Source: a virus
IMG/VR virus record: IMGVR_UViG_3300020200_000015
Span: 18,961 to 82,960 of that record
Reading direction: 5' to 3' (one strand)
Length of the DNA: 64,000 nucleotides
The notes beneath the pieces were generated by a model. The model was not told where the DNA came from, searched no databases, and saw only the letters and a list, made by a program, of their open reading frames with translations. Made by a program: the position numbers and the translations under genes. How positions within the stretch are numbered: position 1 is the stretch's first letter; each line of letters starts with the position of its first letter. Shown here piece by piece: positions 43,508 through 63,338 of the stretch.

Positions 43508-45163
43508 TTAGTCTTTCAGCAAGTCGTAGATTCCCTTCAGCGAATCTGGTTTGTTGTACTTTCTAGAGTCGTACAAGAACTTGGGACCAAGCTTCTCGAA
43601 CGACTTGCGGTCGGCGATACCCATTTGAGGCACCCAACCGCCCGCCGGTAGTATGATACCTTGAATCTCTTCTTGAGCCCAGACTGATGCAATACAACTA
43701 TCGACAACGTCATCGCCCAACTTGTTGTTGAGCATCGAATACTTGTTGTAGCCGCCAGGAATTCGTTCAGCTTTGATATTGCCGAACTGGCTTAACATCT
43801 TCTGCACAATCGTGTAGCGGCTGTCATCATCGACAATCGCCGGGTAGCGAAACATGCACCCATACACGTACTTCTGCATTCTCTCATGCATCAAGTGCTT
43901 TTGCGGGCCTGTGAAGCGCAGCGGCTTTATGTACCAATCATCCCAGCCGTCTTTGCCTTGCTTATTCTCATACCTACGTACATCGATCCTAGTCAGACCG
44001 TTATCGTGCAGCGCTCGATTGAGATCATACAAAAATGCGGTGTCGAAGGCGTCGCCAAACCCGCCAACTGGTCTGAAAAATGCAATCAACCTCACCAAAT
44101 CGGTGATAATGGTCTCAGGACGCGAATTAGCACCCCACTCTTGTGAGTGGAGCCAAAACACCTGATTGTTAATTTTCTCTGTGAACGTAACAGACCATGA
44201 CGACGCATCCTCTCCGGAACCTGCGCCAGCGCAGTCGATGCCAATGGTCACATCACCTCTTGCCTGGTATGTGATCTTCGGATCGAGAACTATATCGATC
44301 GGAGTGTACTCGTTGTCGGCGCAGTTACGCAGCCATCTATCGGGGTAAAACGAGCTTGATTCAACGTACAGCACCAAGTAGGTTCTTGCGAACTGGTGCG
44401 GCGTTGACATTGCCTGGAACAACTTGATGTCGTTCTCAGGAATGATGCCCATTGCAACGCCATGCCAAGCGTTGAACTTGGGCAGCACATTGAACCTCAG
44501 CTTGACGCTACCGTTGATTTCCTCTGGGTGCTCAATCTTGTAGATGTTGCCGATGCCTTTGATTGTGCCCGTGATAACGCGCAGGCAGGCACTATGGCAT
44601 CCATAATCATGCTGATCTTTGATTTGCGAGCCAGTCGGGTAGATGCGGGTTAGGAACGACTCCCAATCTATATCATCGAACTCTTCAAGCCATTGGTGCG
44701 TTGCGCCCAGACCGTCAACTGATGACGCCTGACCTTTGGCTTGAATCAGGCTTCGATTCATGAATTCGATGTGCTCCTTGCCGATACCGTCGCCGAGGCG
44801 TTCATCAAGGTATGCGAGGGCAATCTCTGAATTCATCACCATATCGTTCATGTAGCGCAGGTTGCGCTTGCTCTGCTCAATGGCAGGGCTATGAACGTTG
44901 ACTTCGCTGTATGGCAGGCACATTGCCTCCTCAAGAAAGTAAGCCGAAACTGTGAACGACTTACGAATACGGCGGCTTCCAATCAGCATGTGGCTATCAC
45001 CCTTCTCGTCCATCTCATTCATCCAATGGACTTGGTGCGGGTTCAAGTTGATGCCGGTGATATGCTTGTGCCAGAGGTAGTGATCGCCTCTGAACTTCAT
45101 GATTTCACGTTCAACCGTCTTGCGGAAGTTGCCCGTGACATTCTTTCCAAGCCGTACTCTCAT
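43508..45163 (-). CDS. Terminase large subunit
   Basis: PHQ, Walker A-like SRRIRKS, WLEE, ITGT, nuclease GID and DDVVDS. Confidence 0.85.
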   Translation of the reverse strand: MRVRLGKNVTGNFRKTVEREIMKFRGDHYLWHKHITGINLNPHQVHWMNEMDEKGDSHMLIGSRRIRKSFTVSAYFLEEAMCLPYSEVNVHSPAIEQSKRNLRYMNDMVMNSEIALAYLDERLGDGIGKEHIEFMNRSLIQAKGQASSVDGLGATHQWLEEFDDIDWESFLTRIYPTGSQIKDQHDYGCHSACLRVITGTIKGIGNIYKIEHPEEINGSVKLRFNVLPKFNAWHGVAMGIIPENDIKLFQAMSTPHQFARTYLVLYVESSSFYPDRWLRNCADNEYTPIDIVLDPKITYQARGDVTIGIDCAGAGSGEDASSWSVTFTEKINNQVFWLHSQEWGANSRPETIITDLVRLIAFFRPVGGFGDAFDTAFLYDLNRALHDNGLTRIDVRRYENKQGKDGWDDWYIKPLRFTGPQKHLMHERMQKYVYGCMFRYPAIVDDDSRYTIVQKMLSQFGNIKAERIPGGYNKYSMLNNKLGDDVVDSCIASVWAQEEIQGIILPAGGWVPQMGIADRKSFEKLGPKFLYDSRKYNKPDSLKGIYDLLKD

Positions 45164-46128: not shown

Positions 46129-46800
46129 CTAGTTGACTATCTCGCCGCTCTTCAACAGCTCTTGGTACACAGGATCGTTAAGAGTCATCTGCGTACCGGC
46201 GTTAACAGCATCGAGGAACTTGTCCTCGATCTTCTTTCTATCGGCCATAACCTGCTCAATGGTAGCAGGGTTCTCGACAATGATGTGACCACTTACGCTG
46301 CGCTTCTCATCAGCACTCTTGGGAGTGAGCTTAAAGTCGCCGAGATTGATTCCAACTGACCGCGCAAGCTGGATGCAGCGCTGAATCAGAGGATGGTCGC
46401 TCTTACGCATGGCGACCACCATATCACGCCTCGTACCGTGCTCAGGACGCCAGTTGGGATCAGGAATCCAAATGGGCTGGCCTTTGGCGTCGAGCATCGG
46501 CTCTTCGATCGTCACACCCTCGATGTTGACCTGCTCAAGCATACGCCTGATTTGCATGATCAACATCGCGGTGACTTCAGAGGCGTCCTTCTTGACAAAG
46601 TCAAGGTCGCCGGTCGCAAAAGCGTCGGCGTAGTTCTTCAGGTGCATCATGTCGTGCAGACACGATTCACCAAACACCACCTTCTGCTGTTCGTAGTACG
46701 TGCAGCCAGTACCGCCATTCTTGAAGAAGTAGCAGTCTTTGTTGCACTTGCGAACGGCATTAAGGCCGAGCGCGTCCTTCTCTTTACGGTTCAGCCTCAC
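46129..46800 (-). CDS. Putative terminase small subunit
   Basis: EGVTI...HPLI...F.LTPKS pattern (P27-like); upstream of TerL. Confidence 0.55.
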   Translation of the reverse strand: MRLNRKEKDALGLNAVRKCNKDCYFFKNGGTGCTYYEQQKVVFGESCLHDMMHLKNYADAFATGDLDFVKKDASEVTAMLIMQIRRMLEQVNIEGVTIEEPMLDAKGQPIWIPDPNWRPEHGTRRDMVVAMRKSDHPLIQRCIQLARSVGINLGDFKLTPKSADEKRSVSGHIIVENPATIEQVMADRKKIEDKFLDAVNAGTQMTLNDPVYQELLKSGEIVN

Positions 46801-49645: not shown

Positions 49646-49973
49646 ACCTAGTACTACAAGATTCTAGGCAAGTGATGGCCATGACTCATAGCGTGAAAGC
49701 GGGGTGACAGGTAAAGAGCGATAACCCATAGCGTGAAAGCGGGGTCGGGCTGAGTCGGGCTGAGTCTATCAGTACCGTGGAACCCAGATCAGTGAGGCTA
49801 GTAAGGATGAGAAGCTGAGGAGCTGAGGGGCTGAGGGGCTGAGAGGCTGACTAGTTGGCTGGCTGACTGGATGTGATCTTTACTATGGTCAAAGGTAGAT
49901 CAACTTTTGAAAGCATATTCTGGATGAGGTAGGTGGCGCGGTTGGGCGTCCGGTCGTGTCGTACTATTTGCCA

Positions 49974-50007
49974 GGTGGGGGGCGGGGGACCGCCCCCGCC
50001 CCCACCC
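49974..50007. terminator. Strong GC hairpin downstream of the Ala-rich gene
   Basis: GGGGGCGGGGG-ACCG-CCCCCGCCCCC (11-bp perfect stem); no clear U-tract. Confidence 0.5.
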
Positions 50008-50013
50008 TAAGGG

Positions 50014-50478
50014 CTACGCCTTAGGGGCGGTAGGGTGCAACGACCAACGTTGTGCGCCCGTATACGGGCGCGCAATATAGTGCCCCGCACGTGCGCCGGG
50101 TGTGCTACAACCCGGTTTGGCGGGGACGTTATGCACGACGATAGTAGCGTCGCTGGCGGCGGCGGTTGCCGTCGCCAGTTGCACGGCGGCGCAGGCGTGG
50201 ACGCTACTACCGGCAGGCACGGTCGGCCAGCCAACGTTGGCGCCACGCGGCGCCCGGTAGTTGCCTGCGACCGGCACCACAAAGGCGACGCCGTGCACGA
50301 CGGCAACGACGCCAGCAGCAAGGGCGACGCCAACGTCGCCGGCGGGTACCGTAACGGCGGCGGCGGCAGTCGCCACGGCAGGGGGCACGGCAGGGACCGT
50401 GGCAGGGGCCGCCTTGGCGGCGGCAGGGGGCACGGCAGGGACCGTGGCAGGGGACGGGTTGTTACGTTGCGTTGCCAT
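50014..50478 (-). CDS. Ala/Val/Pro-rich hypothetical protein with no Glu (probable start MATQRNN)
   Basis: Preceded by the cassette-type hairpin CCCGCGCA-TGG-TGCGCGGG; PATVPAVPPA occurs twice. Confidence 0.55.
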   Translation of the reverse strand: MATQRNNPSPATVPAVPPAAAKAAPATVPAVPPAVATAAAAVTVPAGDVGVALAAGVVAVVHGVAFVVPVAGNYRAPRGANVGWPTVPAGSSVHACAAVQLATATAAASDATIVVHNVPAKPGCSTPGARAGHYIARPYTGAQRWSLHPTAPKA

Positions 50479-50559
50479 ACTGTGCTTGCCGGACGACCCG
50501 CGCACCATGCGCGGGTAGCCCGTGCACGTGGCAGGGGCTGTTGTCCGACGACCCCACCT

Positions 50560-50907
50560 TAGCAAATACCATGCCACGCACGGCATGACGGCCTGCTTTT
50601 TTTTTGCGATTGTCGCAAGCCCTTATATCGCAACGGGTTACGGCCAATAAATATTTTCGCTGCACTATAGTGCATCGCATGGCTGGTCGGCCTTACTGTT
50701 ACGACATGGTAACGTTTTGGGCCATGCGCGCAAGTCTTTGCACGACAAGCACTTGCGGATGGCTGTTTGTTACGCTAGCCACACTGCCAATGTGCCATGC
50801 GCTAGCAAATACCATGCCACGCACGGCATGACGGCCGACTTTTTTTTGCGATTGTTGCAAGTCCTTATATTACAGGTATTTGCGACCACATAGCAAATAC
50901 CATGCCA
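50560..50907 (-). promoter_or_regulatory. Three identical sigma54-like -24/-12 boxes TGGCATGGTATTTGCTA
   Basis: Copies at 50560-50576, 50803-50819 and 50891-50907; exact GG-N10-GC spacing. Confidence 0.55.
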
Positions 50908-50920
50908 CGCACGGCATGAC

Positions 50921-50985
50921 GGCATGACAGGCTAGCATGACAGGCTGGCATGACAGGCTGGCATGACAGGCTGGCATGACAGGCT
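50921..50985. repeat. 13-bp tandem repeat GGCATGACAGGCT, 5 copies
   Basis: Read directly; one unit starts with A. Confidence 0.9.
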
Positions 50986-51352
50986 GGCAGGGGAGGGGAG
51001 GCTGCCAGGATGGCAGGGCTGCCAGGATGGCAGCCCGGCGTTCATTCAACCCTTTTATGAATAACAGAACTGAAAAACAGAACTGAATAACTGAATGAAT
51101 GAAATTCATCCCTCAAATTCAAGTCAGCATAACTGAATGCTCAGTCTCAACAGCAATTCACTCTATCAATGCAGAACTGAATGATGCAGTCTACTGAAGC
51201 TCAGTAGATTATATCTGCTTGAATTCAGTCAGTCACTATGACTATGAGGTGCTGACTTCTTTCATTCATTCTTTCTTTCAGTCACTCTATCATTCATTCT
51301 TTCATTCACTCATGACTGAATGAAACATTGCTGCACATGGCGGCATGGCCGC

Positions 51353-51673
51353 CTAGTCGAACCACAACTTTAGCATAGGCTCGCCGCCTTGCGGGAATAT
51401 GTTGACGGACAAGTAACCGTCAGGCAACTCGTCCGGCAACTGCCGCAAAGCAGCGACGAAGGCAGCGTAGCTGTCGGCAGTATGCCAGCCGTGCGTCAAG
51501 TACACGCTAACGCCGTCTGCCGTGCCATCGCCGTCGGCAGTCTCGTCGGCATGCATCGACAGCACATAGTTAAATACGTCAACATGTGCATGGCAGCACT
51601 CGATGACGGCACGAAAGAAGTTAGCGTACTCCTTGCTAGCGTTGTACGTAAAGGTGGGGATCGGCTTCTGCAT
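51353..51673 (-). CDS. Cassette gene 1, paralogue family A
   Basis: Start follows the cassette RBS; shares CC..H, GV.V.L..GW, ALR.LP..LPDG and KLW with genes 2 and 3. Confidence 0.75.
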   Translation of the reverse strand: MQKPIPTFTYNASKEYANFFRAVIECCHAHVDVFNYVLSMHADETADGDGTADGVSVYLTHGWHTADSYAAFVAALRQLPDELPDGYLSVNIFPQGGEPMLKLWFD

Positions 51674-51680
51674 TGTTTCG

Positions 51681-51785
51681 TTGTCCTTTGCGCCGCACCA
51701 TGCGGCGCAGGTGTAGCATACTATACGGTGCAAGGGTTGCAAACACTAGCCAACACATTCATTACCACCACCACTTCATTCATTC
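51681..51785 (-). promoter_or_regulatory. Repeated promoter-hairpin-RBS cassette, copy 1
   Basis: TTGCAA-N16-TATGCT, hairpin GCGCCGCA-TGG-TGCGGCGC, AAAGGACAAC. Confidence 0.85.
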
Positions 51786-52108
51786 AATCACTCAGTCACT
51801 CTTTCAATCATTCATTCACTCACTCTTGATGTCATGACTTCATTCCAGAGTGACACGGTGAGGTTCATATGACTTAGTCACACTGAGTTCACTCATTCAG
51901 TTAGAACATATCTGCCTGAGTTCATTCAAATAGATATGTTCTACCTGAGTTCATTCACCGTTGAGTTCAGTCAGTCACTCAGTCAGCGTGTAACTGAACT
52001 GAATTCATTCTAGCATTCATGTGCGCATAACTGAACTGAATTCATTCTAGCATTCATGTGCGCATAACTGAACTCATGAGCCAGTGCACCTAACGGCACA
52101 AGCCGTGG

Positions 52109-52462
52109 CTAGTAGTACCACAGCTTGAAAACCGGGTGCCCTTTAGGGGCAAACAAGTTGATTACAAGGTCGCCGTCGGGCAGCGCGTGGCTAGCCATGC
52201 ACGGGCAGCGACCAACGTCGGGCAGCGCACGCAGGGCGGCGATGAAGTCGGCATAGACGCTTGCTTGCCAGCCGTCGTTGAGCCACACGGTTACACCGTT
52301 GGCTCGCAGTTCCCCGGCTTCGTCGCCAGTATACCTGATGTACCACGTGAAACTGTCGCTGTGCTTTTGGCAGCAAGCGACAATGTGCTGAAGCAAGTTG
52401 TCGTAGCCGTCGCAGTTGGCGACAAAGGGTGGCACCGTTGCCATTGGTTGAGGGTCGTGCAT
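52109..52462 (-). CDS. Cassette gene 2, paralogue family A
   Basis: Highly similar to 52670..52978. Confidence 0.8.
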   Translation of the reverse strand: MHDPQPMATVPPFVANCDGYDNLLQHIVACCQKHSDSFTWYIRYTGDEAGELRANGVTVWLNDGWQASVYADFIAALRALPDVGRCPCMASHALPDGDLVINLFAPKGHPVFKLWYY

Positions 52463-52575
52463 GTTGTTGTCCTTTGCACCGCACTATGCGGCGCAGGTGT
52501 AGCATACTATACGGTGCAAGGGTTGCAAGCACTAGCCCACACATTCATTACCACCACCACTTCATTCATTCAATC
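52463..52575 (-). promoter_or_regulatory. Repeated promoter-hairpin-RBS cassette, copy 2
   Basis: Near-identical to copy 1. Confidence 0.85.
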
Positions 52576-52637
52576 ACTCAGTCACTCTTGACTTCAATCA
52601 CCCTTGAGTTCATTCATTCAGTAGATTGTCAGGCACT

Positions 52638-52666
52638 GAAAAAGCCACCCCGCTAGGGGTGGCTTG
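52638..52666 (-). terminator. Intrinsic terminator (duplicated at about 54620-54646)
   Basis: AAGCCACCCC-GCTA-GGGGTGGCTT with a U-run on the minus strand. Confidence 0.8.
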
Positions 52667-52669
52667 AGG

Positions 52670-52978
52670 TTAGTCGTGCCACAGCTTGAAAACCGGGTGC
52701 CCCTTGGGGGCAAACAAGTTGACTACAAGGTCGCCGTCGGGCAGCGCGTTGGGCAGCCACCGCAGGGCGTCGATGAAGTCGGCGTATGTGCTTGCTTGCC
52801 AGCCGTCGTTGAGCCACACGGTTACGCCACAAGCTTGGTCGCCAGTATACCTGACAAGAAACGTAAGGGCGTCGCTGTGCTTTTGGCAGCAAGCGACAAT
52901 GTGCTGAAACAAGTTGTCGTAGTCGTCGCTGTTGGCGATAAAGGGTGGCACCGTTGCCATTGGTTGAGGGTCGTGCAT
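52670..52978 (-). CDS. Cassette gene 3, paralogue family A (no Glu)
   Basis: Cassette RBS upstream; paralogy with genes 1 and 2. Confidence 0.8.
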   Translation of the reverse strand: MHDPQPMATVPPFIANSDDYDNLFQHIVACCQKHSDALTFLVRYTGDQACGVTVWLNDGWQASTYADFIDALRWLPNALPDGDLVVNLFAPKGHPVFKLWHD

Positions 52979-53090
52979 GTTGTTGTCCTTTGCGCCGCAC
53001 TATGCGGCGCAGGTGTAGCATACCATACGGTGCAAGGGTTGCAAGCACTAGCCCACACATTCATTACCACCACCACTTCATTCATTCATT
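52979..53090 (-). promoter_or_regulatory. Repeated promoter-hairpin-RBS cassette, copy 3
   Basis: Near-identical repeat. Confidence 0.85.
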
Positions 53091-53164
53091 CACTCTTGAG
53101 TTCAGTCACTCTTGACTGACTTCATTCATTCACTCACCCTAGGCAGGCAAAGCAAACCTGGGCG

Positions 53165-53452
53165 TTAGCCCAGGTCGGCCTCAACCAGCACGGCGGTTAC
53201 ACCCTCACCGTCGGCACTGTTGCCGGCGGTGTCGAACAGGTACGCCGCCTTGTCGTGAGACATGCCCTGCGCCGTCTCCTCGTCCAACATGCCATCGGCA
53301 ACCAGCTTGCCGACCGTCGTGGTCTCAAGCTGCGCGTCGTACTGCGACGGCCCAAGGCCGTTGAGAATGCGACCGCACCACAGCAGGGTTTGAGCGTCGG
53401 GGTTGGTCCCCAGCGCATTGAAAAACACACACACAAGTCGTTTGTTAGCCAT
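53165..53452 (-). CDS. Cassette gene 4, acidic hypothetical protein (start MANKRL)
   Basis: AAGGAC RBS after the cassette hairpin. Confidence 0.7.
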   Translation of the reverse strand: MANKRLVCVFFNALGTNPDAQTLLWCGRILNGLGPSQYDAQLETTTVGKLVADGMLDEETAQGMSHDKAAYLFDTAGNSADGEGVTAVLVEADLG

Positions 53453-53458
53453 GAGAAC

Positions 53459-53585
53459 TGTCCTTGTCGTTTGGTTGTGCGACGCACTATGCGGCGCAGG
53501 TGTAGCATACCATACGGTGCAAGGGTTGCAAGCACTAGCCCACACATTCATTACCACCACCACTTCATTCATTCATTCATTCATT
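53459..53585 (-). promoter_or_regulatory. Repeated promoter-hairpin-RBS cassette, copy 4
   Basis: Near-identical repeat. Confidence 0.85.
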
Positions 53586-53622
53586 CACTCACCGCTGAAT
53601 GATTGACTGATTTCATTCAGTC

Positions 53623-53897
53623 CTGAGTTCAGTTAGAACATATCTACCTGAGTTCAGTTAGAACATATCTACCTGAGTTCAGTTAGAACATATCTACATT
53701 CACTCAGTTAGAACATATCTACCTGAGTTCAGTTAGAACATATCTACCTGAGTTCAGTTAGAACATATCTACATTCACTCAGTTAGAACATATCTACATT
53801 CACTCAGTTAGAACATATCTACATTCACTCAGTTAGAACATATCTACATTCACTCAGTTAGAACATATCTACCTGAGTTCAGTTAGAACATATCTAC
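53623..53897. repeat. 25-bp tandem array of 11 units in two variants
   Basis: [CTGAGT or ATTCAC]TCAGTTAGAACATATCTAC in the order AAABAABBBBA. Confidence 0.95.
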
Positions 53898-54065
53898 ATT
53901 CATTCATCGCGGCACTTGAAGTCATTCTATACATATGCGCGCATAACTGAATGATCTCTCATCAACCATATGCGCGCATAACTGAATGATCTAATTCATT
54001 CCAGAGTCTTGGAATGCAATCAGTCACTCAGTCTTGAGTGATGTGCAAGTAGCGGCGGGCGCAAA

Positions 54066-54422
54066 CTACTGTTTGCGCCATGGGTCACTTAGCCATTTGC
54101 TGTTGCTACCTTGACTGTACAGCTTGCTGCCGTCAGCCAGCGTCGCCCAGGCAACCCAAAAGCCACGCGATGAGCTAACCACGGTCGCCAAGCAACGGCC
54201 TTGGTGCCAAATAGCGTCGCTACCCTCAAGGTTAGTAACCACCACCCAACCGTCACCAACTGGTTGGGCGTCGGCGTCGTCGTTGCACTGCTGGCTGATG
54301 TTGTTGTCGCCGCTACCCAGCAGCACGCACAGCTCAACAATTGCCTTTAACAAACCGCCCTGCCCAGCGGGCAAGCGTTTGCCTTCGTCCAAGTACAAGC
54401 CCAATGCCTTTTGTTCGTCCAT
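54066..54422 (-). CDS. Cassette gene 5, hypothetical protein (start MDEQKA)
   Basis: Cassette RBS upstream. Confidence 0.7.
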   Translation of the reverse strand: MDEQKALGLYLDEGKRLPAGQGGLLKAIVELCVLLGSGDNNISQQCNDDADAQPVGDGWVVVTNLEGSDAIWHQGRCLATVVSSSRGFWVAWATLADGSKLYSQGSNSKWLSDPWRKQ

Positions 54423-54514
54423 GTGTTGTTGTCCTTTGCGCCGCACTATGCGGCGCAGGTGTAGCATACCATACGGTGCAAGGGTTGCAAGCACTAGCCC
54501 ACACATTCATTACC
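54423..54514 (-). promoter_or_regulatory. Repeated promoter-hairpin-RBS cassette, copy 5
   Basis: Near-identical repeat. Confidence 0.85.
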
Positions 54515-54582
54515 GCAGTCACTCACTCTTGACTTCACTCACTCTTGAGTTCATTCCAGAGTCTTGGAATGCAATCAGTCAC

Positions 54583-54700
54583 TCTTGAGTTCATTCATTC
54601 AGTAGATTATCAGGCACTGAAAAAGCCACCCCGCTAGGGGTGGCTTGAGGTTAGTCGTGCCACAGCTTGAAAACCAGCCTACGGTGCAAGGGCTACAAGC
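54583..54700 (-). pseudogene. Relic cassette: 3' end (FKLWHD*) and terminator of a family-A gene fused to a promoter fragment
   Basis: 54583-54675 duplicates 52603-52694; it is followed by TACGGTGCAAGGG from the cassette promoter. Confidence 0.75.
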
Positions 54701-54713
54701 AACTGCCTTGTTC

Positions 54714-55007
54714 TCACAGCGCCACCTCAACCACCACCGCATTGGCGGTTTCATCCTCGAACTCGCTGGCTGCTTCCCACACAGCGCATGCGGTGTCAGG
54801 CGGCAAGCCAGCACCAACGCTGTCATCACCCCACAGGTCACGCACAGCGCCAAGGGTGGTGTTGAAATCCAGCTTAATTTCCTTGGTGTAAGGCCCATGC
54901 CCTTCATGCAGCTTACCTTCGGTAAAGAAAAGCTGGGTGAACTGGTGCTTGCCGAAGTTGCAGTGCGCTATCAGCTGCACCTTGTTTGCTTTTGGTTGTG
55001 TTGCCAT
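54714..55007 (-). CDS. Cassette gene 6, hypothetical protein
   Basis: Cassette RBS upstream. Confidence 0.7.
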   Translation of the reverse strand: MATQPKANKVQLIAHCNFGKHQFTQLFFTEGKLHEGHGPYTKEIKLDFNTTLGAVRDLWGDDSVGAGLPPDTACAVWEAASEFEDETANAVVVEVAL

Positions 55008-55096
55008 GTCGTTGTCCTTTGCGCCGCACTATGCGGCGCAGGTGTAGCATACTATACGGTGCAAGGGTTGCAAGCACTAGCCCACACATTCATTAC
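55008..55096 (-). promoter_or_regulatory. Repeated promoter-hairpin-RBS cassette, copy 6
   Basis: Near-identical repeat. Confidence 0.85.
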
Positions 55097-55192
55097 CCCC
55101 GCTGCACTCATTCAACTGCGCCTGCTTTACCCTGCGCTGAATGAATGAATTCACACACAAGGCAAGCCACCTTGTTGAAGGGTGGCCGCCCA

Positions 55193-55459
55193 CTACACCA
55201 CAAACATCAGGTCAGGGTGTGCGGGCTTGTACTGCTGAGTGCCAGCGGCCTTGTTGAGCGCGTCGCGCACAACAGGGTTTTGGTGGCCATCAGCAAACTT
55301 AATGAGGTTGTTAACCATGGCATCAAGCTGGGCGCGCATAACGCGCACACTTTCAACCAACGCGGCGTCGCCCATGCTTTCAGCATTTGCGGCGATGTAA
55401 TCATAGCGCAGCTTAAAGCGCTGCACTTGGTTGCCAATGGCAAGTAGGTAGTCGTCCAT
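55193..55459 (-). CDS. Cassette gene 7, hypothetical protein (start MDDYLL)
   Basis: AAGGAC RBS after the hairpin. Confidence 0.7.
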   Translation of the reverse strand: MDDYLLAIGNQVQRFKLRYDYIAANAESMGDAALVESVRVMRAQLDAMVNNLIKFADGHQNPVVRDALNKAAGTQQYKPAHPDLMFVV

Positions 55460-55469
55460 TTGAGTGTCG

Positions 55470-55560
55470 CTGTCCTTGTTGTTGGTGCGGCGCACCATGC
55501 GCCGCAGGTGTAGCATACCATACGGTGCAAGGGTTGCAAGCACTAGCCCACACATTCATT
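55470..55560 (-). promoter_or_regulatory. Repeated promoter-hairpin-RBS cassette, copy 7 (compensatory stem variant)
   Basis: Same promoter; hairpin GCGGCGCA-TGG-TGCGCCGC. Confidence 0.85.
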
Positions 55561-55979
55561 TACAGCAGCGCCTTCACCTTGGCCCAGTACTTCACCGTGG
55601 CGTCCTTGCGGTGTCCTTTCGGCCCACCATTGTGAATACGGGCCAGCTTCTCACGGTCACCGTCGGCCACAGCTTGCTTGGCGTACCTGAGCCAGTAGGC
55701 AACCACGCACCTCTCAGCATAAGTGCGGCCTTTCACGTCGTCGTATGTACCACCCAGCTCAGTGCAATGGTCGGTAGCGTCCTTCCAGTACACGCGCCAC
55801 AGCTGAAAGCTGCCAAGAGCCTTGCCCTTGTCGCCAACAGCCTCATTGTCGTTGCCACTTTCCACGGTGGCAATGGCATCAAGTAGCGGGCGCAGCTTTG
55901 TGCGCGCCTCATCGAGTTCGGCTACCGTTGACCCCTTGGGCGCAACGGCAAGCATGAGCATAAACGCTAGTGTCCTCAT
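55560..55979 (-). CDS. i-type (destabilase-like) lysozyme/transglycosylase with a hydrophobic N-terminus
   Basis: AIATVESG, G.FQL...YW.DA, ARIHNGGPKG and YW.KV; start MRTLAFMLMLAVA after an AAAGGAC RBS. Confidence 0.75.
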   Translation of the reverse strand: MRTLAFMLMLAVAPKGSTVAELDEARTKLRPLLDAIATVESGNDNEAVGDKGKALGSFQLWRVYWKDATDHCTELGGTYDDVKGRTYAERCVVAYWLRYAKQAVADGDREKLARIHNGGPKGHRKDATVKYWAKVKALL

Positions 55980-56275
55980 CGTCGCTGTCCTTTGTTGGTG
56001 CGCCGCACCATATGCGGCACTAGGTATATTAGCAGTTTGCGCCTTCAACTTAAGGGCAAAATAACATTCATCCCCGCCGCTGAATGAATGACTTCAGCCC
56101 CTGAGCGCTGAATGAATGAATTCAGTCAGTCATCACCTGAGCGCTGAATGAATGAATTCAGTCAATCAGTCACTCGCTCATTCAACCATCTGGTCTGGCT
56201 GAACGAATGAACGAATGAATTCCAGAACTCAGCTGCTACGCGCACGCGCATAACTGAACTACTGAAACATCAATG

Positions 56276-56465
56276 CGCGCATAACTGAACTGAACCAGAT
56301 AGCCACTCAATCAGATTCAACCTGTCACGCGCATAACTGAACTGAGCCAGATAGCCAATCAATCAGATTCAACCTGTCACGCGCATAACTGAACTGAGCC
56401 AGATAGCCAATCAATCAGATTCAACCTGTCACGCGCATAACTGAACTGAGCCAGATAGCCAATCA
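56276..56465. repeat. 52-bp tandem repeat, about 3.6 copies
   Basis: Units start at 56276, 56328, 56380 and 56432; each begins CGCGCATAACTGAACTGA. Confidence 0.9.
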
Positions 56466-57571
56466 TTTCCTCTGACCACGGTGCGCGCATAACCGAATCC
56501 ACCGGAGAGAGATAAATACTTTGATGATTAAGAGCGAGAACTAAGTGATCCTCAGGTTTATATCGATCCCCCACCGGATCGATAAGCCCATAGCTCCTAT
56601 CTTGATGATTAAGAGCCAATCCAGGCCCAGATCCCCAAGATGATTGAGTTCATGAGCTTTTATATGTTTTGCCACCGGATCGATAAAAGCCTGCTCTTAT
56701 CTTGACGGATTGACTATTACCCACACACAACAAAGAGCGGGTTCTCAGTCACAACCCGTGAATGAATGACTTCATGATATCCGTCAGGGTATTTATGAGT
56801 TTCGCCACCGGATCGATAAAGCCTACCCATTTTCAAGGCTAAATGATGAAAGTTAGACCATTCTCATCATAAATAGCCTCTCAGTCCACATTTTCTGGCT
56901 AAATGATGAGCCATGGAGTAGTCTGACTGTCAGATTGTGGGTGTACGAGCACCCCCTCAGACAATCCTCAGAGTACTCTCAACCCCCTCATCGCCCCCAT
57001 CCATCACCCTCCCCGCATCTCACCCCATTCCCGCACTTCTCTCACACTACCATCATGGGCTTCTCTCCCCCTTCGTCTCATCTACACTACCATTCCTATC
57101 ACCCTACTACTCATATCCTAGTAGTTCAGCTACTAGCGTGACTCTCTCCTGCTATCAGTTGTTCATCGACCAGCTTCATCTACAACTGACTGATCACTAC
57201 TAGCGGTCATCCGTACTCATTTACAAATGCCACTGATCAGCGTAAAGGCTTCTTGATGATGTGTCAGTCATCATCACTGAGATTTCCCAAACGGGAAGTT
57301 CAGAGGATTTCTCAGGCTTCAAACTTGAGTCACATTTACTATCCTTCATCTTTCAAAAGCCATTCACGGCTGTATTTTTGCCTTGTGGGTTTACTACCAC
57401 CCTTTTATTTCTTTGCAATCTCAACGCCTTCACCGTTGTAATCAGTACGCTTGAGTATGCACCGGTAAATACTAGCTAGGGTACGCAAGCTCATGATCCA
57501 GTCCTTTGTCTCACAGTGATCATGAATCTTTGATATCCTCCCGAAGAACTGGACTGCGTGGTAATCACTCA

Positions 57572-59172: not shown

Positions 59173-59420
59173 TGCGCCTGCCCCCAGTAGGTGTTGAGCC
59201 GCTGCGCGACCAGCCGCTGCTCCCACTCATCGTCGGTCGCCGCGTTGGCGTTGACATACGCCAGCGCAGCGGCGGCGTTGAGGAGCGGCACCTGCTGCGC
59301 GTTGCGAATCGCCCAAACCAACTCGGCGTCGGTGAGGGGCAGCGGCTTTGAAGCCGGCAACGTGGCGCGCACGCGACTGGCGTAAAGAAGTTCTCCGGGC
59401 TTGCTGTCGTTGAGGAACAT
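59169..59420 (-). CDS. Hypothetical protein driven by a class II cassette
   Basis: AAGG RBS after the hairpin. Confidence 0.6.
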   Translation of the reverse strand: MFLNDSKPGELLYASRVRATLPASKPLPLTDAELVWAIRNAQQVPLLNAAAALAYVNANAATDDEWEQRLVAQRLNTYWGQAQ

Positions 59421-59427
59421 TGGCTAC

Positions 59428-59505
59428 CTTGTTGTTGATTTTGTGCCGCACCTTGCGGCACACCACCATTTTACCGTGAGGCATGGCAGCGTCAACTACC
59501 ATGCC
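59428..59505 (-). promoter_or_regulatory. Class II promoter-hairpin cassette, copy 1
   Basis: TTGACG-N16-TAAAAT; the -35 is flanked by GGCATGG-N12-CCATGCC; hairpin GTGCCGCA-AGG-TGCGGCAC. Confidence 0.75.
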
Positions 59506-59537
59506 CACGAAATAGCAATATTCATAACTCATATCAG

Positions 59538-60328: not shown

Positions 60329-60730
60329 CTACACGACCACACACTTGAGAGCGCCGGCAAGCTGACGACCCCACCAACTCGCAGCATTGCTGCCGTTGAT
60401 GCGGCGGCCCTTGTCAAACAGGTACTGATCTGCCGCGTCGATTTGCACCGTAAACGGCACCTCGACCAACCCGTGCAAGCAATGGTTGCGCTTCATACGC
60501 TGGTCGCAGGGCTGGCCCTCAGCGATGCAGCGCACCTCGAGCTTGGTGGTTACGAGCGGCAGGCTGGCAACCTGATGAAACAGGTGCCAAGCCTCGTCGC
60601 TTGCCTGCTGAACCAGCAGGTTCTGAAAGAGCGTGCTAACCGCCGTGAGATGTGGCAGCGCACTCCGGTGCTGGTTTGCCAGCATGATGGTACGCATCGT
60701 GTTGATGCTACGTTGCTTTAGTGAGACCAT
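60329..60730 (-). CDS. Hypothetical protein driven by a class II cassette
   Basis: AAAGGCAACAAATG after the hairpin. Confidence 0.6.
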   Translation of the reverse strand: MVSLKQRSINTMRTIMLANQHRSALPHLTAVSTLFQNLLVQQASDEAWHLFHQVASLPLVTTKLEVRCIAEGQPCDQRMKRNHCLHGLVEVPFTVQIDAADQYLFDKGRRINGSNAASWWGRQLAGALKCVVV

Positions 60731-60734
60731 TTGT

Positions 60735-60810
60735 TGCCTTTGAGATATGCCGCACCTTGCGGCACACCACCATTTTACCGTGAGGCATGGCGATGTCCAA
60801 CACCATGCCG
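60735..60810 (-). promoter_or_regulatory. Class II promoter-hairpin cassette, copy 2
   Basis: Repeat of 59428-59505. Confidence 0.75.
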
Positions 60811-61035
60811 ACAAAACGGCAACATTCATTTCTCAGAGAAAACTGTGCCAAGCCAATTCATGAATTCACCTGGCCAAATCATGCGCTGAATGGCTGTTTC
60901 AGGCGCTGAATTGCTCATCGCCTATTTGCGGTGCTATTGTGCTGCCCTACCTACTACACTAGCAAACCATTTCATGCGCTTTGAGGGCCATTCACCGCGA
61001 CGGGTTTTAGCTCAAAGTGCCTACGGCAGCGGCAA

Positions 61036-63049: not shown

Positions 63050-63100
63050 TGCAGTTGCTCTCAAGTCAGAGACTACCACGCCCGCAAAACAGAGCGTGAT

Positions 63101-63200
63101 AAAAAACCCCGGCCACCCGTGAGGGTGACCGGGGCCATGGCAACAACAACAACGAAGCTACGCCTGACACTCCAAGTACCAGGCGCGGCCACTTATGCTT
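63101..63200 (-). ncRNA. Candidate small RNA of about 100 nt
   Basis: Promoter TTGCAA-N16-TATAAT at 63206-63233; internal hairpin; GUU-repeat linker; terminator CCCCGGTCACCC/GGGTGGCCGGGG plus U6; no ORF with its own start. Confidence 0.65.
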
Positions 63201-63338
63201 TGCCCATTATAGCGTGAGCGCCGCTTTTTGCAAGCTACATAGCAACAAACTTTGCCATGAGATAGCCTGCAATCATTCCAACCAGCAACGATAAAGCTGA
63301 CATTGATGCGACGGCGGCAGCCGCCATCCCATCCTCCC

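What the first reader, a model, noticed from the sequence alone, without database searches (positions are those of the whole stretch)
51353..56070. Array of single-gene cassettes, each with a near-identical promoter-hairpin-RBS module
SEEN: seven near-identical 90-110 bp elements (51681, 52463, 52979, 53459, 54423, 55008, 55470) plus a divergent one at about 55985-56070. Each reads TTGCAA-N16-TATGCT, then a GC hairpin, then AAGGAC(AAC), directly before a different 88-139 aa ORF. KNOWN: repeated promoter/stem-loop cassettes (PeSL elements) are linked to modular gene shuffling in T4-type phages. INFERENCE: this is a plug-and-play host-takeover or anti-defence locus where recombination between repeats, possibly via the phage RecA, adds, deletes and duplicates genes. 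The cargo proteins are candidate new anti-defence factors.
Basis: partly seen in the sequence, partly recalled or inferred. Interest (0 to 1): 0.85.

Follow-up and report, generated by a model that had tools for sequence, protein, structure and literature searches.

The report
Repeated promoter-hairpin gene cassettes in phage
An uncultured lake-water phage puts the same ~90-base control unit (promoter, RNA hairpin, ribosome site) in front of eight small, mostly unknown genes; this resembles the shuffling cassettes of T4-type phages, so it is a useful but not surprising example.

Summary
Seven modules, 91-100% identical over a 77-nt core, lie on the minus strand, with a divergent eighth. Each has an ATGAATGT motif, TTGCAA, a 16-nt spacer, TATGCT, 5 nt, a 9-bp GC hairpin, a CA-rich leader with AAGGA, then ATG.

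The host genome is a ~112-kb siphovirus known only from lake metagenomes. It encodes RecA but no integrase.

The cargo is not eight different genes. Three ORFs are paralogues, one is a secreted lysozyme-like protein, and four are acidic ORFans. A ninth cassette is dead.

Evidence within the genome supports turnover by recombination:
- a tandem cassette duplication;
- a deletion scar;
- mosaic leaders;
- modules far more alike than the paralogous genes they drive;
- a composition foreign to the rest of the phage;
- no counterpart in any relative I could reach.

The hairpin lies downstream of the promoter and has no U-tract. It is therefore not a PeSL terminator. It is most likely a 5'-terminal mRNA stabiliser, or possibly an operator.

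No transcription data exist, near relatives could not be fetched, and the anti-defence idea was not tested. This scan has seen similar arrays in other phages. Verdict: a PeSL-like, moron-like variant of moderate interest.

The parts
51674..51762 (-). Module m1: ATGAATGT motif, -35 TTGCAA (51742-51737), 16-nt spacer, -10 TATGCT, 9-bp hairpin, AAGGAC leader
51353..51673 (-). Cargo c1, 106 aa, pI 4.6. Paralogue of c2 and c3.
   Evidence: No Pfam or PHROG hit.
52463..52548 (-). Module m2. It has a G.U wobble in the stem.
52109..52462 (-). Cargo c2, 117 aa. Member of a rare small family. The AF2 model is alpha-beta-beta-alpha-beta-beta.
52979..53064 (-). Module m3, identical to m5 over the 77-nt core
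52670..52978 (-). Cargo c3, 102 aa, 72% identical to c2. It is a tandem duplicate that includes its module.
   Evidence: (D8, D19, D20)
52638..52665 (-). Intrinsic terminator after c3: 10-bp GC stem followed by a T-run
53453..53551 (-). Module m4. One stem mismatch and a different, longer leader.
53165..53452 (-). Cargo c4, 95 aa, pI 4.2, ORFan
53146..53174 (-). Terminator-like hairpin overlapping the c4 stop codon, followed by a T-rich tail
54423..54510 (-). Module m5
54066..54422 (-). Cargo c5, 118 aa, pI 4.7. An orphan: it matches only itself among 5.8 billion protein clusters.
54575..54701 (-). Dead cassette. A mutated -35 remnant (54680-54701) is fused directly to the last ~25 nt of a c3-type ORF, its terminator and its spacer. 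This stretch is 97% identical to 52594-52694. The -10, hairpin, RBS and most of the ORF are deleted.
   Evidence: (D13, D17)
55008..55093 (-). Module m6
54714..55007 (-). Cargo c6, 97 aa, pI 4.8, orphan
55460..55559 (-). Module m7. It has a compensatory C-G to G-C change in the stem, and its leader is of the m8 type. It starts directly at the c8 stop codon.
55193..55459 (-). Cargo c7, 88 aa, ORFan
55152..55191 (-). Terminator-like hairpin after c7, with a weak T/G tail
55980..56071 (-). Divergent module m8. The promoter differs (TTAAGT-N16-TAATAT), but the hairpin core, leader and AAGGAC are the same.
55560..55979 (-). Cargo c8, 139 aa, pI 9.2. Hydrophobic N-terminal signal sequence and a Destabilase (i-type lysozyme) domain.
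   Evidence: PF05497, E 5.5e-10, above the cutoff
59421..59525 (-). ATGAATAT motif, TTGACG-N16-TAAAAT, 5 nt, a 9-bp hairpin with the same GCCGCA/TGCGGC core, CA-rich leader, AAGG, then ATG at 59420. It heads an operon of about 6 genes running down to 57405.
60731..60829 (-). ATGAATGT motif, TGGACA-N16-TAAAAT, the same hairpin, then ATG at 60730. It heads a 3-gene operon.
51249..56231 (-). AT-rich spacers between cassettes, made of degenerate (TGAN)n tetranucleotide tracts. Examples: 51249-51331, 51763-51853, 52553-52631, 53064-53139, 53551-53626, 54505-54602, 56081-56231. In the 83-kb record these tracts occur only in this interval.
   Evidence: (D3, D4)

Best explanation
This is a lineage-specific accessory-gene array in an uncultured ~112-kb lake siphophage. 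It holds eight live single-gene expression cassettes and one dead one.

Anatomy (shown). Each cassette starts with a sigma-70-type promoter. The promoter has an upstream ATGAATGT motif inside an AT-rich (TGAN)n tract, a -35 TTGCAA, a 16-bp spacer and a -10 TATGCT.

Mechanism (inferred). The host RNA polymerase would start about 7 nt after the -10. That places the first transcribed bases inside a 9-bp GC-rich triloop hairpin. I propose that this 5'-terminal hairpin shields the short monocistronic mRNAs from 5'-end-dependent decay. The unstructured CA-rich leader with AAGGA would then give efficient translation.

Terminators. Some cassettes end in intrinsic terminators (shown for c3 and c4, weakly for c7).

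Evolution (inferred from traces within the genome). The repeated modules also serve as homology for the phage's own RecA-type recombination. This keeps them 91-100% identical by gene conversion and allows cassettes to be duplicated, lost and re-joined.

The functions of the cargo proteins are unknown, except for one lysozyme-like protein.
For: Repeat reality:
- 7 exact pattern matches against 0 in shuffles.
- 77-nt cores are 91-100% identical while the ORFs they drive are unrelated or only 59-78% identical.

The design recurs in diverged copies:
- m8, mA and mB share the -35/N16/-10/N5/9-bp hairpin/CA leader/SD layout with different promoter sequences.
- All 10 such hairpins in the 83-kb record are on the coding strand, 5 nt after a -10.
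- ATGAAT[AG]T occurs 13 times in the record, always on that strand. Ten of those lie 18-30 nt upstream of the ten -35 boxes.

Hairpin:
- -16 to -18 kcal/mol, z-scores -1.9 to -3.6 for the four intact copies folded.
- 95.6% of cells are paired. Two stem positions show compensatory changes and three show G.U wobbles, which pair only in the sense RNA.
- There is no U-tract after the hairpin.
- 5'-terminal stem-loops are known mRNA stabilisers (Emory 1992 and Bouvet & Belasco 1992, as listed in PMC3997798).

Turnover:
- c2 and c3 are a tandem duplication that includes the module. c1 is an older paralogue.
- A deletion scar of a further c3-type cassette survives.
- m7 carries the m8-type leader behind a family-1 promoter.
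- The -13 A/G site and the loop G/A site show all four combinations.

Foreign composition: cassette GC is 0.577 against 0.502 for core genes, and GAT:GAC is 10:64 against 229:156.

Hypervariable location: no gene from window 47-64 kb has a homologue in the relatives, whose TerL is at most 78% identical. Synteny resumes at 46129-46800. The relative G001 has ordinary operons there.

Recombination genes: RecA (E 2.8e-68) and an Mre11-like nuclease are present. No integrase or resolvase was found.
Against: - There is no transcription evidence of any kind. No RNA run is listed for this phage.
- The match to the E. coli sigma-70 consensus is only 8 of 12 with a 16-nt spacer, below the threshold of the consensus scan. 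The host is unknown.
- The record encodes a sigma-like protein with a Sigma70_r2 domain. The promoter class and its timing are therefore open.
- Covariation in the hairpin rests on 10 related sequences and about 3 independent events. A perfect palindrome at +1 to +21 fits a DNA operator equally well.
- The deletion scar is an illegitimate deletion inside one cassette, not an exchange between modules.
- No joint or alternative cassette order was seen in four metagenomes. Only short contigs that break at the repeats could be laid.
- Near relatives (TerL 93-94% identical, plus a 45-kb ENA contig) could not be fetched.
Confidence: 0.6

Rival explanations
1. The 21-bp palindrome (TGCGCCGCA-N3-TGCGGCGCA) is a DNA operator rather than an RNA element. 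A dimeric phage or host repressor would bind at +1 to +21 of all ten promoters and switch the whole set off, or on, together. This would be a temporal class switch. The cassette architecture is otherwise as in the main explanation.
For: - The GCCGCA/TGCGGC core is conserved across three otherwise diverged promoter families at a fixed 5-nt distance from the -10. This argues for sequence-specific recognition, since an RNA stabiliser needs only structure.
- The position overlaps the predicted start site, which is a classic repressor position.
- Ten sites on one strand form a plausible regulon.
Against: - The compensatory C-G to G-C and C-G to U-A changes alter the bases a protein would read, yet they keep pairing.
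- G.U wobbles in m2, m8 and mB keep the RNA pairing but break the DNA symmetry.
- No candidate repressor was identified among the neighbouring small proteins.
Confidence: 0.22
2. The array is only the product of serial tandem duplication of one ancestral cassette, with the ORFs diverging beyond recognition. On this view the identical modules reflect selection on a promoter. The repeats play no role in gene exchange, and nothing was acquired from outside.
For: - c1, c2, c3 and the scar show that duplication of whole cassettes really happens here.
- All cassettes share one unusual composition.
- No cassette was found in another genomic context.
Against: - c4, c5, c6, c7 and c8 show no similarity to each other or to c1-c3.
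- c8 belongs to an old, widespread lysozyme family. A 52% identical homologue sits in an ordinary operon without any module in another phage, so it was brought under a module secondarily.
- The 16-nt spacer and the flanks, which are not expected to be under strong selection, are as conserved as the hexamers. This points to gene conversion or recent spread.
- Metagenome contigs carry a ~94% identical c8 whose similarity ends at the start codon or inside the hairpin.
Confidence: 0.12
3. The modules are recognised by a phage-encoded factor and not by the host primary sigma. They would then be middle or late promoters, and the array would not be an early host-takeover locus.
For: - The record encodes a 210-aa protein with a Sigma70_r2 domain and an HTH.
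- The hexamers match the sigma-70 consensus only 8 of 12, and the invariant 16-nt spacing is unusual.
- One cargo is a lysozyme-like protein, typically a late function.
- The array lies directly upstream of the packaging and structural genes, in the same orientation.
Against: - The TTGnnn / TAnnnT hexamers of all three module families are typical of a primary sigma. Alternative sigma factors usually read quite different boxes. mA is TTGACG-N16-TAAAAT.
- The sigma-like protein has region 2 at its C-terminus and no region 4 hit, so it is not a standard sigma.
- No phage RNA polymerase was detected, but that search is uninformative because its controls also rang nowhere.
Confidence: 0.2
4. The locus is an integron-like site-specific recombination platform. 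The hairpins would be attC-like single-strand recombination sites.
For: The layout looks superficially similar: an array of single-gene cassettes, each bounded by an inverted repeat.
Against: - No tyrosine or serine recombinase was found in the 83-kb record, although it is only ~74% complete.
- The palindrome is 21 bp. From my own knowledge, attC sites are much longer imperfect repeats.
- Every cassette has its own promoter, whereas integron cassettes have none.
- The palindrome sits between the promoter and the RBS, not at the 3' end of the cassette.
Confidence: 0.03

Closest known systems
PeSL (promoter-early stem-loop) cassettes of T4-type phages RB49/phi1, PST/T4 and nt-1/KVP40 (Arbiol et al. 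2010, PMC2839356; Comeau et al. 2014, PMC4122927)
   Same: - A repeated composite regulatory motif contains a sigma-70-like promoter, an AT-rich tract upstream of the -35 and a GC stem-loop.
- The motifs are concentrated in a hypervariable region and flank small ORFans.
- There is no dedicated recombinase, and the phage's general recombination machinery is invoked.
- Traces of insertion, deletion and duplication are present.
   Different: - In PeSLs the stem-loop is an effective terminator or attenuator for upstream transcription. Here the hairpin is 5 nt downstream of the -10, inside the transcript leader, and has no U-tract. Separate terminators follow some ORFs.
- The phage is a siphovirus with no cultured relative.
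- The promoter is further from consensus.
- Mini-circles and relative-to-relative exchanges, which define PeSL function, are not shown here.
Morons of lambdoid and other phages ('The moron comes of age', PMC3594210)
   Same: - They are independent transcription units with their own promoter and, for some, their own terminator.
- They are added between conserved phage modules.
- Their nucleotide composition differs from the rest of the genome.
- They are absent from relatives.
   Different: - Morons are usually single, each with its own unrelated promoter, and are typically expressed from prophages.
- Here eight units share one near-identical promoter module.
- The phage shows no sign of lysogeny in the part available (no integrase).
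Host-takeover module of Bacillus phage SPO1 and the pre-early region of T5
   Same: Both are clusters of many small genes of unknown function. These genes are driven by repeated strong host-type promoters with strong ribosome-binding sites.
   Different: - Those regions lie in or next to terminal repeats and are proven early.
- Here neither position at a genome end nor early timing is shown.
- In the complete relative G003 the terminase lies about 25 kb from the assembled end.
Promoter / 5'-hairpin / RBS cassette arrays noted earlier in this scan in phAPEC8-type and phi92-like coliphages (e1-191365, e1-273277) and in lake phages (e1-5765527, e1-6087797)
   Same: The module grammar is the same: a host-type promoter, an RNA hairpin at the transcript start and a ribosome site, placed in front of tiny ORFans.
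   Different: - The phage lineage is unrelated and the array is much smaller.
- Those notes are AI readings that I did not check.

Membership tests
PeSL (T4-type promoter-early stem-loop cassette) | Sigma-70-like promoter at or near consensus | tested here: inconclusive
   TTGCAA-N16-TATGCT matches 8 of 12, with TGn before the -10 in 4 of 7 copies. This is below the 9-of-12 threshold of the scan. The host and its consensus are unknown, and there are no TSS data.
PeSL (T4-type promoter-early stem-loop cassette) | The stem-loop acts as a terminator or attenuator for transcription coming from upstream | tested here: not met
   The hairpin starts 5 nt downstream of the -10 in all 10 modules and is followed by CAAAGGAC or CACCAACA, not a U-run.
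PeSL (T4-type promoter-early stem-loop cassette) | [quoted passage not shown] | tested here: met
   (TGAN)n tracts and the ATGAATGT motif lie 18-30 nt upstream of every -35.
PeSL (T4-type promoter-early stem-loop cassette) | Located in a hyperplastic region and associated with ORFans | tested here: met
   No homologue of any gene from window 47-64 kb occurs in the relatives. c5 and c6 match only themselves. The c1-c3 family has 11 representative clusters among 1.84 billion.
PeSL (T4-type promoter-early stem-loop cassette) | Indels between close relatives map to the elements, and circular excision products exist | not testable with these tools
Only Logan contigs that break at the repeats could be laid, and no joints were seen.
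PeSL (T4-type promoter-early stem-loop cassette) | Host genome is a T4-like myovirus | tested here: not met
   The genome has a tape measure protein of 1678 aa and a siphovirus-type major tail protein. TerL has only a 28% identical hit, to a Microcystis siphophage.
Moron | Autonomous unit with its own promoter and its own terminator | tested here: inconclusive
   A promoter-like module precedes all 8 ORFs. Clear intrinsic terminators follow only c3, the scar and c4, with a weak one after c7. None is convincing after c1, c2, c5 or c8.
Moron | Nucleotide composition differs from the surrounding phage genes | tested here: met
   GC is 0.577 against 0.502. GAT:GAC is 10:64 against 229:156. AGA, TCT, ATC and GAT are 4- to 8-fold depleted.
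Moron | Inserted between genes that are adjacent in related phages | tested here: inconclusive
   The relatives differ across the whole ~17-kb region upstream of the 46129-46800 homologue, so single insertion points cannot be defined.
Integron | IntI-type tyrosine recombinase next to the array | tested here: not met
   PF00589 and PF00239 give no match in the 83-kb record, which is 74% complete. The controls rang.
Integron | Promoterless cassettes ending in attC sites | tested here: not met
   Each cassette starts with its own promoter-like module. The 21-bp palindrome lies 5' of the ORF.
N4-type hairpin promoters read by a virion RNA polymerase | Giant virion RNA polymerase encoded by the phage | tested here: not met
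   The two giant ORFs are a tape measure protein and a tail fibre protein. The PF00940 search found nothing, but it is uninformative because its controls rang nowhere.

The most novel reading that the evidence does not exclude
The ten modules may form a phage regulon with a dedicated post-transcriptional switch. On this reading the 5' hairpin stabilises the cassette mRNAs. A ~100-nt phage small RNA, made from its own promoter-to-terminator unit at 63199-63098, would then pair through its GUU-repeat with the CA-rich leaders next to the ribosome sites and shut the whole set of accessory cassettes off at a set time.

In my test the exposed repeat pairs with the ten leaders at a mean of -18.1 kcal/mol, against -10.8 +/- 3.0 for 58 other gene starts. 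However, the leaders are not independent of one another, and nothing shows that the RNA exists.
Probability: 0.15. Interest if true: 0.7.

Novelty: new variant of a known kind. Interest (0 to 1): 0.4.

Why it matters
Repeated promoter cassettes are thought to be how large virulent phages try out and trade small accessory genes. Such genes include many counter-defence genes.

This locus extends that pattern from T4-type myoviruses to an uncultured freshwater siphophage lineage. Its grammar differs, because the hairpin is at the 5' end of the transcript and not a terminator.

The locus is a compact, clean case: eight live units and one dead one. Concerted evolution of the modules can be read directly from the sequence.

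It also provides seven small acidic ORFans and one rare protein family as concrete candidates for functional screens. A 77-nt module from the array could be tested as a portable expression element.

It does not open a new class of system.

Tried and rejected
Reaching close relatives:
I could not fetch the Logan/ENA contigs with 93-94% identical TerL or the 45,360-bp ENA contig that carries a c4 variant.
- Exact 20-mer scans for the module in IMG/VR and in JGI metagenomes found nothing.
- Megablast of the array against GenBank phages found nothing.
- Scans for the cargo family c1-c3 in IMG/VR and in metagenomes found nothing.

The hairpin elsewhere: a scan of IMG/VR for the palindrome gave 7 hits. 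None had a promoter or RBS context, so I treat them as chance palindromes.

Relatives in hand:
- The covariance model R1 found no module in 12 related loci or in four whole related records, nor in L043.
- Self-comparison of G001-G004 showed only coding repeats.

Sequencing runs:
- Fifteen lake-water DNA runs were listed, ten of them holding half or more of the sampled words. No RNA holder is listed.
- Logan contigs break at the modules, and no joints were seen. Parts without cover are not evidence either way.

RNA genes: Rfam gave nothing above the gathering score, and no tRNAs were found.

Cargo function:
- No Pfam or PHROG family for c1-c7.
- The AF2 model of c2 (pLDDT 81) has no significant match in PDB (Foldseek), BFVD or VIA-align wide (best Z 5.6, a generic alpha/beta sandwich).
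- The ESM Atlas gave no usable hit for c7.

Rejected readings:
- The N4-like hairpin promoter.
- The integron reading.
- Specific GATC restriction-site avoidance. The 11-fold GATC deficit in 49.9-56.1 kb is fully accounted for by trinucleotide composition. Three sites are observed against 4.0 expected under a second-order Markov model.

Full report
CONTEXT

The window is bases 18961-82960 of an 82,960-bp IMG/VR virus record. The record is linear and about 74% complete. Fifteen lake-water DNA metagenome runs were listed as holding the stretch or part of it, ten of them holding half or more of the sampled words.

All genes run on the minus strand. The window encodes these functions:
- terminase (43508-45163) and portal;
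- a head protein and a major tail protein;
- a 1678-aa tape measure protein and a 2175-aa tail fibre protein;
- DnaB, another helicase, a DnaE-type polymerase and a clamp;
- RecA (1223-2398, E 2.8e-68), an Mre11-like phosphoesterase and a gp32-like SSB.

It is therefore a large siphovirus. Its terminase has 60 metagenomic homologues, some on 100-120-kb contigs. The only match in GenBank phages is a 28% identical hit to a Microcystis siphophage.

THE OBSERVATION

The seven elements are real. TTGCAA-N16-TATGCT-N5-TGCG occurs 7 times on the minus strand and never in 100 shuffles. There are no further copies in the record.

Over a 77-nt core the copies are 91-100% identical, and m3 equals m5. The ORFs behind them align at about 50%, the background level, or at 59-78% for the paralogues.

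Read 5' to 3' on the minus strand, each module contains these parts in order:
- an ATGAATGT motif;
- about 12 nt, then TTGCAA;
- a 16-nt spacer, with TGn before the -10 in four copies;
- TATGCT, then 5 nt;
- a 9-bp stem with a 3-nt loop (UGCGCCGCA / URG / UGCGGCGCA);
- a CA-rich leader with AAGGAC;
- the ATG, 3-9 nt further on.

The intact hairpins folded are worth -16 to -18 kcal/mol, against -9 to -12 for shuffles. The m4 copy carries one mismatch.

The eighth element (55980-56071) has another promoter, TTAAGT-N16-TAATAT, but the same hairpin core and leader.

(a) A covariance model of the -10-to-ATG part picked up two further sites at 59428-59462 and 60731-60766. Each lies directly after one of the best sigma-70-like sites in the region, TTGACG-N16-TAAAAT and TGGACA-N16-TAAAAT. 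Their sequences show the same layout and the same GCCGCA-N3-TGCGGC hairpin core at the same 5-nt distance. They head operons of about six and three genes.

A regular-expression scan finds nine such hairpins in the 83-kb record. With the m2 variant that makes ten. All are on the coding strand and all lie behind a -10.

ATGAAT[AG]T occurs 13 times in the record and only on this strand. Ten of these lie 18-30 nt upstream of the ten -35 boxes. The design is thus conserved across three diverged promoter families. This is the best available argument that it is functional and not merely repeated DNA.

(b) c1, c2 and c3 are paralogues at 39-72% identity.

(c) Positions 54575-54701 are a dead cassette. 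A mutated -35 remnant is joined directly to the last ~25 nt of a c3-type ORF, its terminator and its spacer. This stretch is 97% identical to 52594-52694.

(d) c8 is a Destabilase-family lysozyme with a hydrophobic N-terminus.

WHERE THE HAIRPIN SITS AND WHAT THAT IMPLIES

The hairpin begins 5 nt after the -10. A start at the usual ~7 nt would therefore fall on the second stem base, and the RNA would begin with the stem. No U-run follows it on either strand. It is neither an intrinsic terminator nor a PeSL-type stem-loop. PeSL stem-loops are effective terminators for upstream transcription, set next to an AT-rich tract and a consensus promoter (PMC2839356; PMC4122927).

Across the ten modules 95.6% of stem cells pair. 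Two positions show compensatory changes: C-G to G-C in m7, and C-G to U-A in mA and mB. Three cells are G.U wobbles, which pair only in the sense RNA. The sample is small and the sequences are related, so this is suggestive only.

A 5'-terminal stem-loop is a known protection against 5'-end-dependent decay (Emory et al. 1992 and Bouvet & Belasco 1992, as listed in PMC3997798). I take that as the most likely role, at about 45%.

The main rival is a palindromic operator at +1 to +21 for co-ordinated switching, at about 22%. The conservation of the core sequence across diverged families favours it.

Promoter class and timing are not established. The hexamers match the E. coli consensus only 8 of 12, and the host is unknown. 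The record also encodes an atypical protein with a Sigma70 region 2 and an HTH.

EVIDENCE FOR RECOMBINATION AND TURNOVER

- c2 and c3 are a tandem duplication of a whole unit of about 516 nt, module included (D8/D19/D20). c1 is an older copy.
- The modules of c1 and c2 are 95% identical while their ORFs are 59% identical. The functionally neutral 16-nt spacer is as conserved as the hexamers. This pattern indicates gene conversion or recent spread more than selection alone.
- m7 combines the family-1 promoter with the leader type of m8, so homology ends at the hairpin.
- The -13 A/G site and the loop G/A site occur in all four combinations.
- A dead cassette survives. It arose by an illegitimate deletion within one cassette, not by exchange between modules.
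- The cassette ORFs have a composition foreign to the phage. GC is 0.577 against 0.502, and GAT:GAC is 10:64 against 229:156.
- None of the genes between window 47 and 64 kb has a homologue in the available relatives, whose TerL is at most 78% identical. This holds for two complete and two partial whole records. Terminase, portal, the HU-like gene and 46129-46800 are syntenic. The relative G001 has ordinary larger operonic genes upstream of its terminase.
- A 52% identical homologue of c8 in another phage sits in an operon without any module.
- In the lake metagenomes, contigs carry a ~94% identical c8 whose similarity stops at the start codon or inside the hairpin. One contig leaves the array 60 nt upstream of m1 (table 7). 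These are hints of other contexts and no more.

No integrase or resolvase is present in the available 74% of the genome. RecA-type homologous recombination is therefore the plausible agent. This is an inference.

CARGO

c1-c7 are small (88-118 aa) and mostly acidic, with pI 4.2-6.0.
- None has a Pfam or PHROG family.
- c5 and c6 match only themselves.
- The c1-c3 family has 11 representative clusters among 1.84 billion proteins.
- The model of c2 (pLDDT 81, alpha-beta-beta-alpha-beta-beta) resembles nothing specific.

The anti-defence idea is reasonable for such genes but rests on no evidence here.

COMPARISON AND VERDICT

The locus works like a PeSL region and like an array of morons (PMC3594210). 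It fails two PeSL membership tests: the position and role of the stem-loop, and the phage type. The decisive PeSL property, exchange at the elements between close relatives and circles, could not be tested.

The scan's own notebook shows that promoter / 5'-hairpin / RBS arrays have been noted in several other phages. I therefore class this as a new variant of a known kind, of moderate interest.

That blocked the one comparison that could have settled the shuffling claim.

Noticed in passing
window 51249-56231 (for example 51257-51313, 51776-51827, 53064-53139, 56100-56173): The spacers between cassettes are degenerate tetranucleotide tracts, (TGAN)n on the coding strand. Runs of three or more units are almost confined to 51-56.3 kb: 38 of the 39 counted lie there. 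The tracts end in the ATGAATGT motif upstream of each promoter, so they may be arrays of that upstream element. They also place stop codons in all three frames.
   Followed up: partly
window 53628-53906; 56276-56465; 51991-52074: Three tandem arrays lie in the non-coding spacers: 25 nt x 11, 52 nt x 3.7 and 37 nt x 2.3. The motif GCGCATAACTGAA occurs 10 times, only on the + strand, between 52023 and 56485. These may be protein-binding iterons. Their function is unknown.
   Followed up: no
window 49900-56100: The cassette ORFs and the stretch 50014-50900 are 2- to 30-fold depleted in GA[AGT]/[ACT]TC, while the spacers are enriched. GATC is found 3 times against 34 expected from the rest of the genome, and TCGA 7 times against 40. 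A second-order Markov model of the block predicts 4.0 GATC. The bias is therefore at the trinucleotide level, not avoidance of a palindromic site. GAC/GTC is enriched 1.8-fold.
   Followed up: partly
window 63098-63233: A gene-less unit runs from a promoter (TTGCAA-N16-TATAAT) to a strong terminator. Its unpaired GUU-repeat is complementary to the CA-rich module leaders. Seed-to-leader duplexes average -18.1 kcal/mol against -10.8 for 58 control gene starts (Mann-Whitney p 3e-6). The leaders are not independent of one another.
   Followed up: partly
window 56070-57400: About 1.3 kb has no convincing ORF. It is full of short dispersed repeats, for example GGCTTTATCGATCCGGTGGC-like x4 and CTCTTAATCATCAAG x2. 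It lies between module m8 and the end of the mA operon. No Rfam family matches.
   Followed up: no
window 50560-50935: Three copies of a ~45-nt element lie downstream of c1. Each has an A-run and a small CATGCC/GGCATG hairpin. A 13-nt x 5 tandem array sits next to them (D18, 56, 91). The adjacent 'ORF' 50014-50586 is 63% GC, repeat-rich and has no family hit. It may not be coding.
   Followed up: no
L051:1420-2052 (G000:10684-11316, about 8 kb before the window): A 210-aa protein has an N-terminal HTH and a C-terminal Sigma70 region 2 (37 bits, above the cutoff), with no region 4 hit. It is an atypical sigma-like factor that could bear on promoter recognition.
   Followed up: partly
Terminase homologues P0018, P0023 and P0037: Some relatives' large terminases are 652-891 aa long and carry intein and homing-endonuclease domains (PF14528, PF14890). 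The terminase in the window has no such insert.
   Followed up: no
L043:7900-8369: A 52% identical homologue of the lysozyme-like c8 lies in an unrelated 46-kb viral contig. It sits inside an ordinary operon without any promoter-hairpin module.
   Followed up: yes
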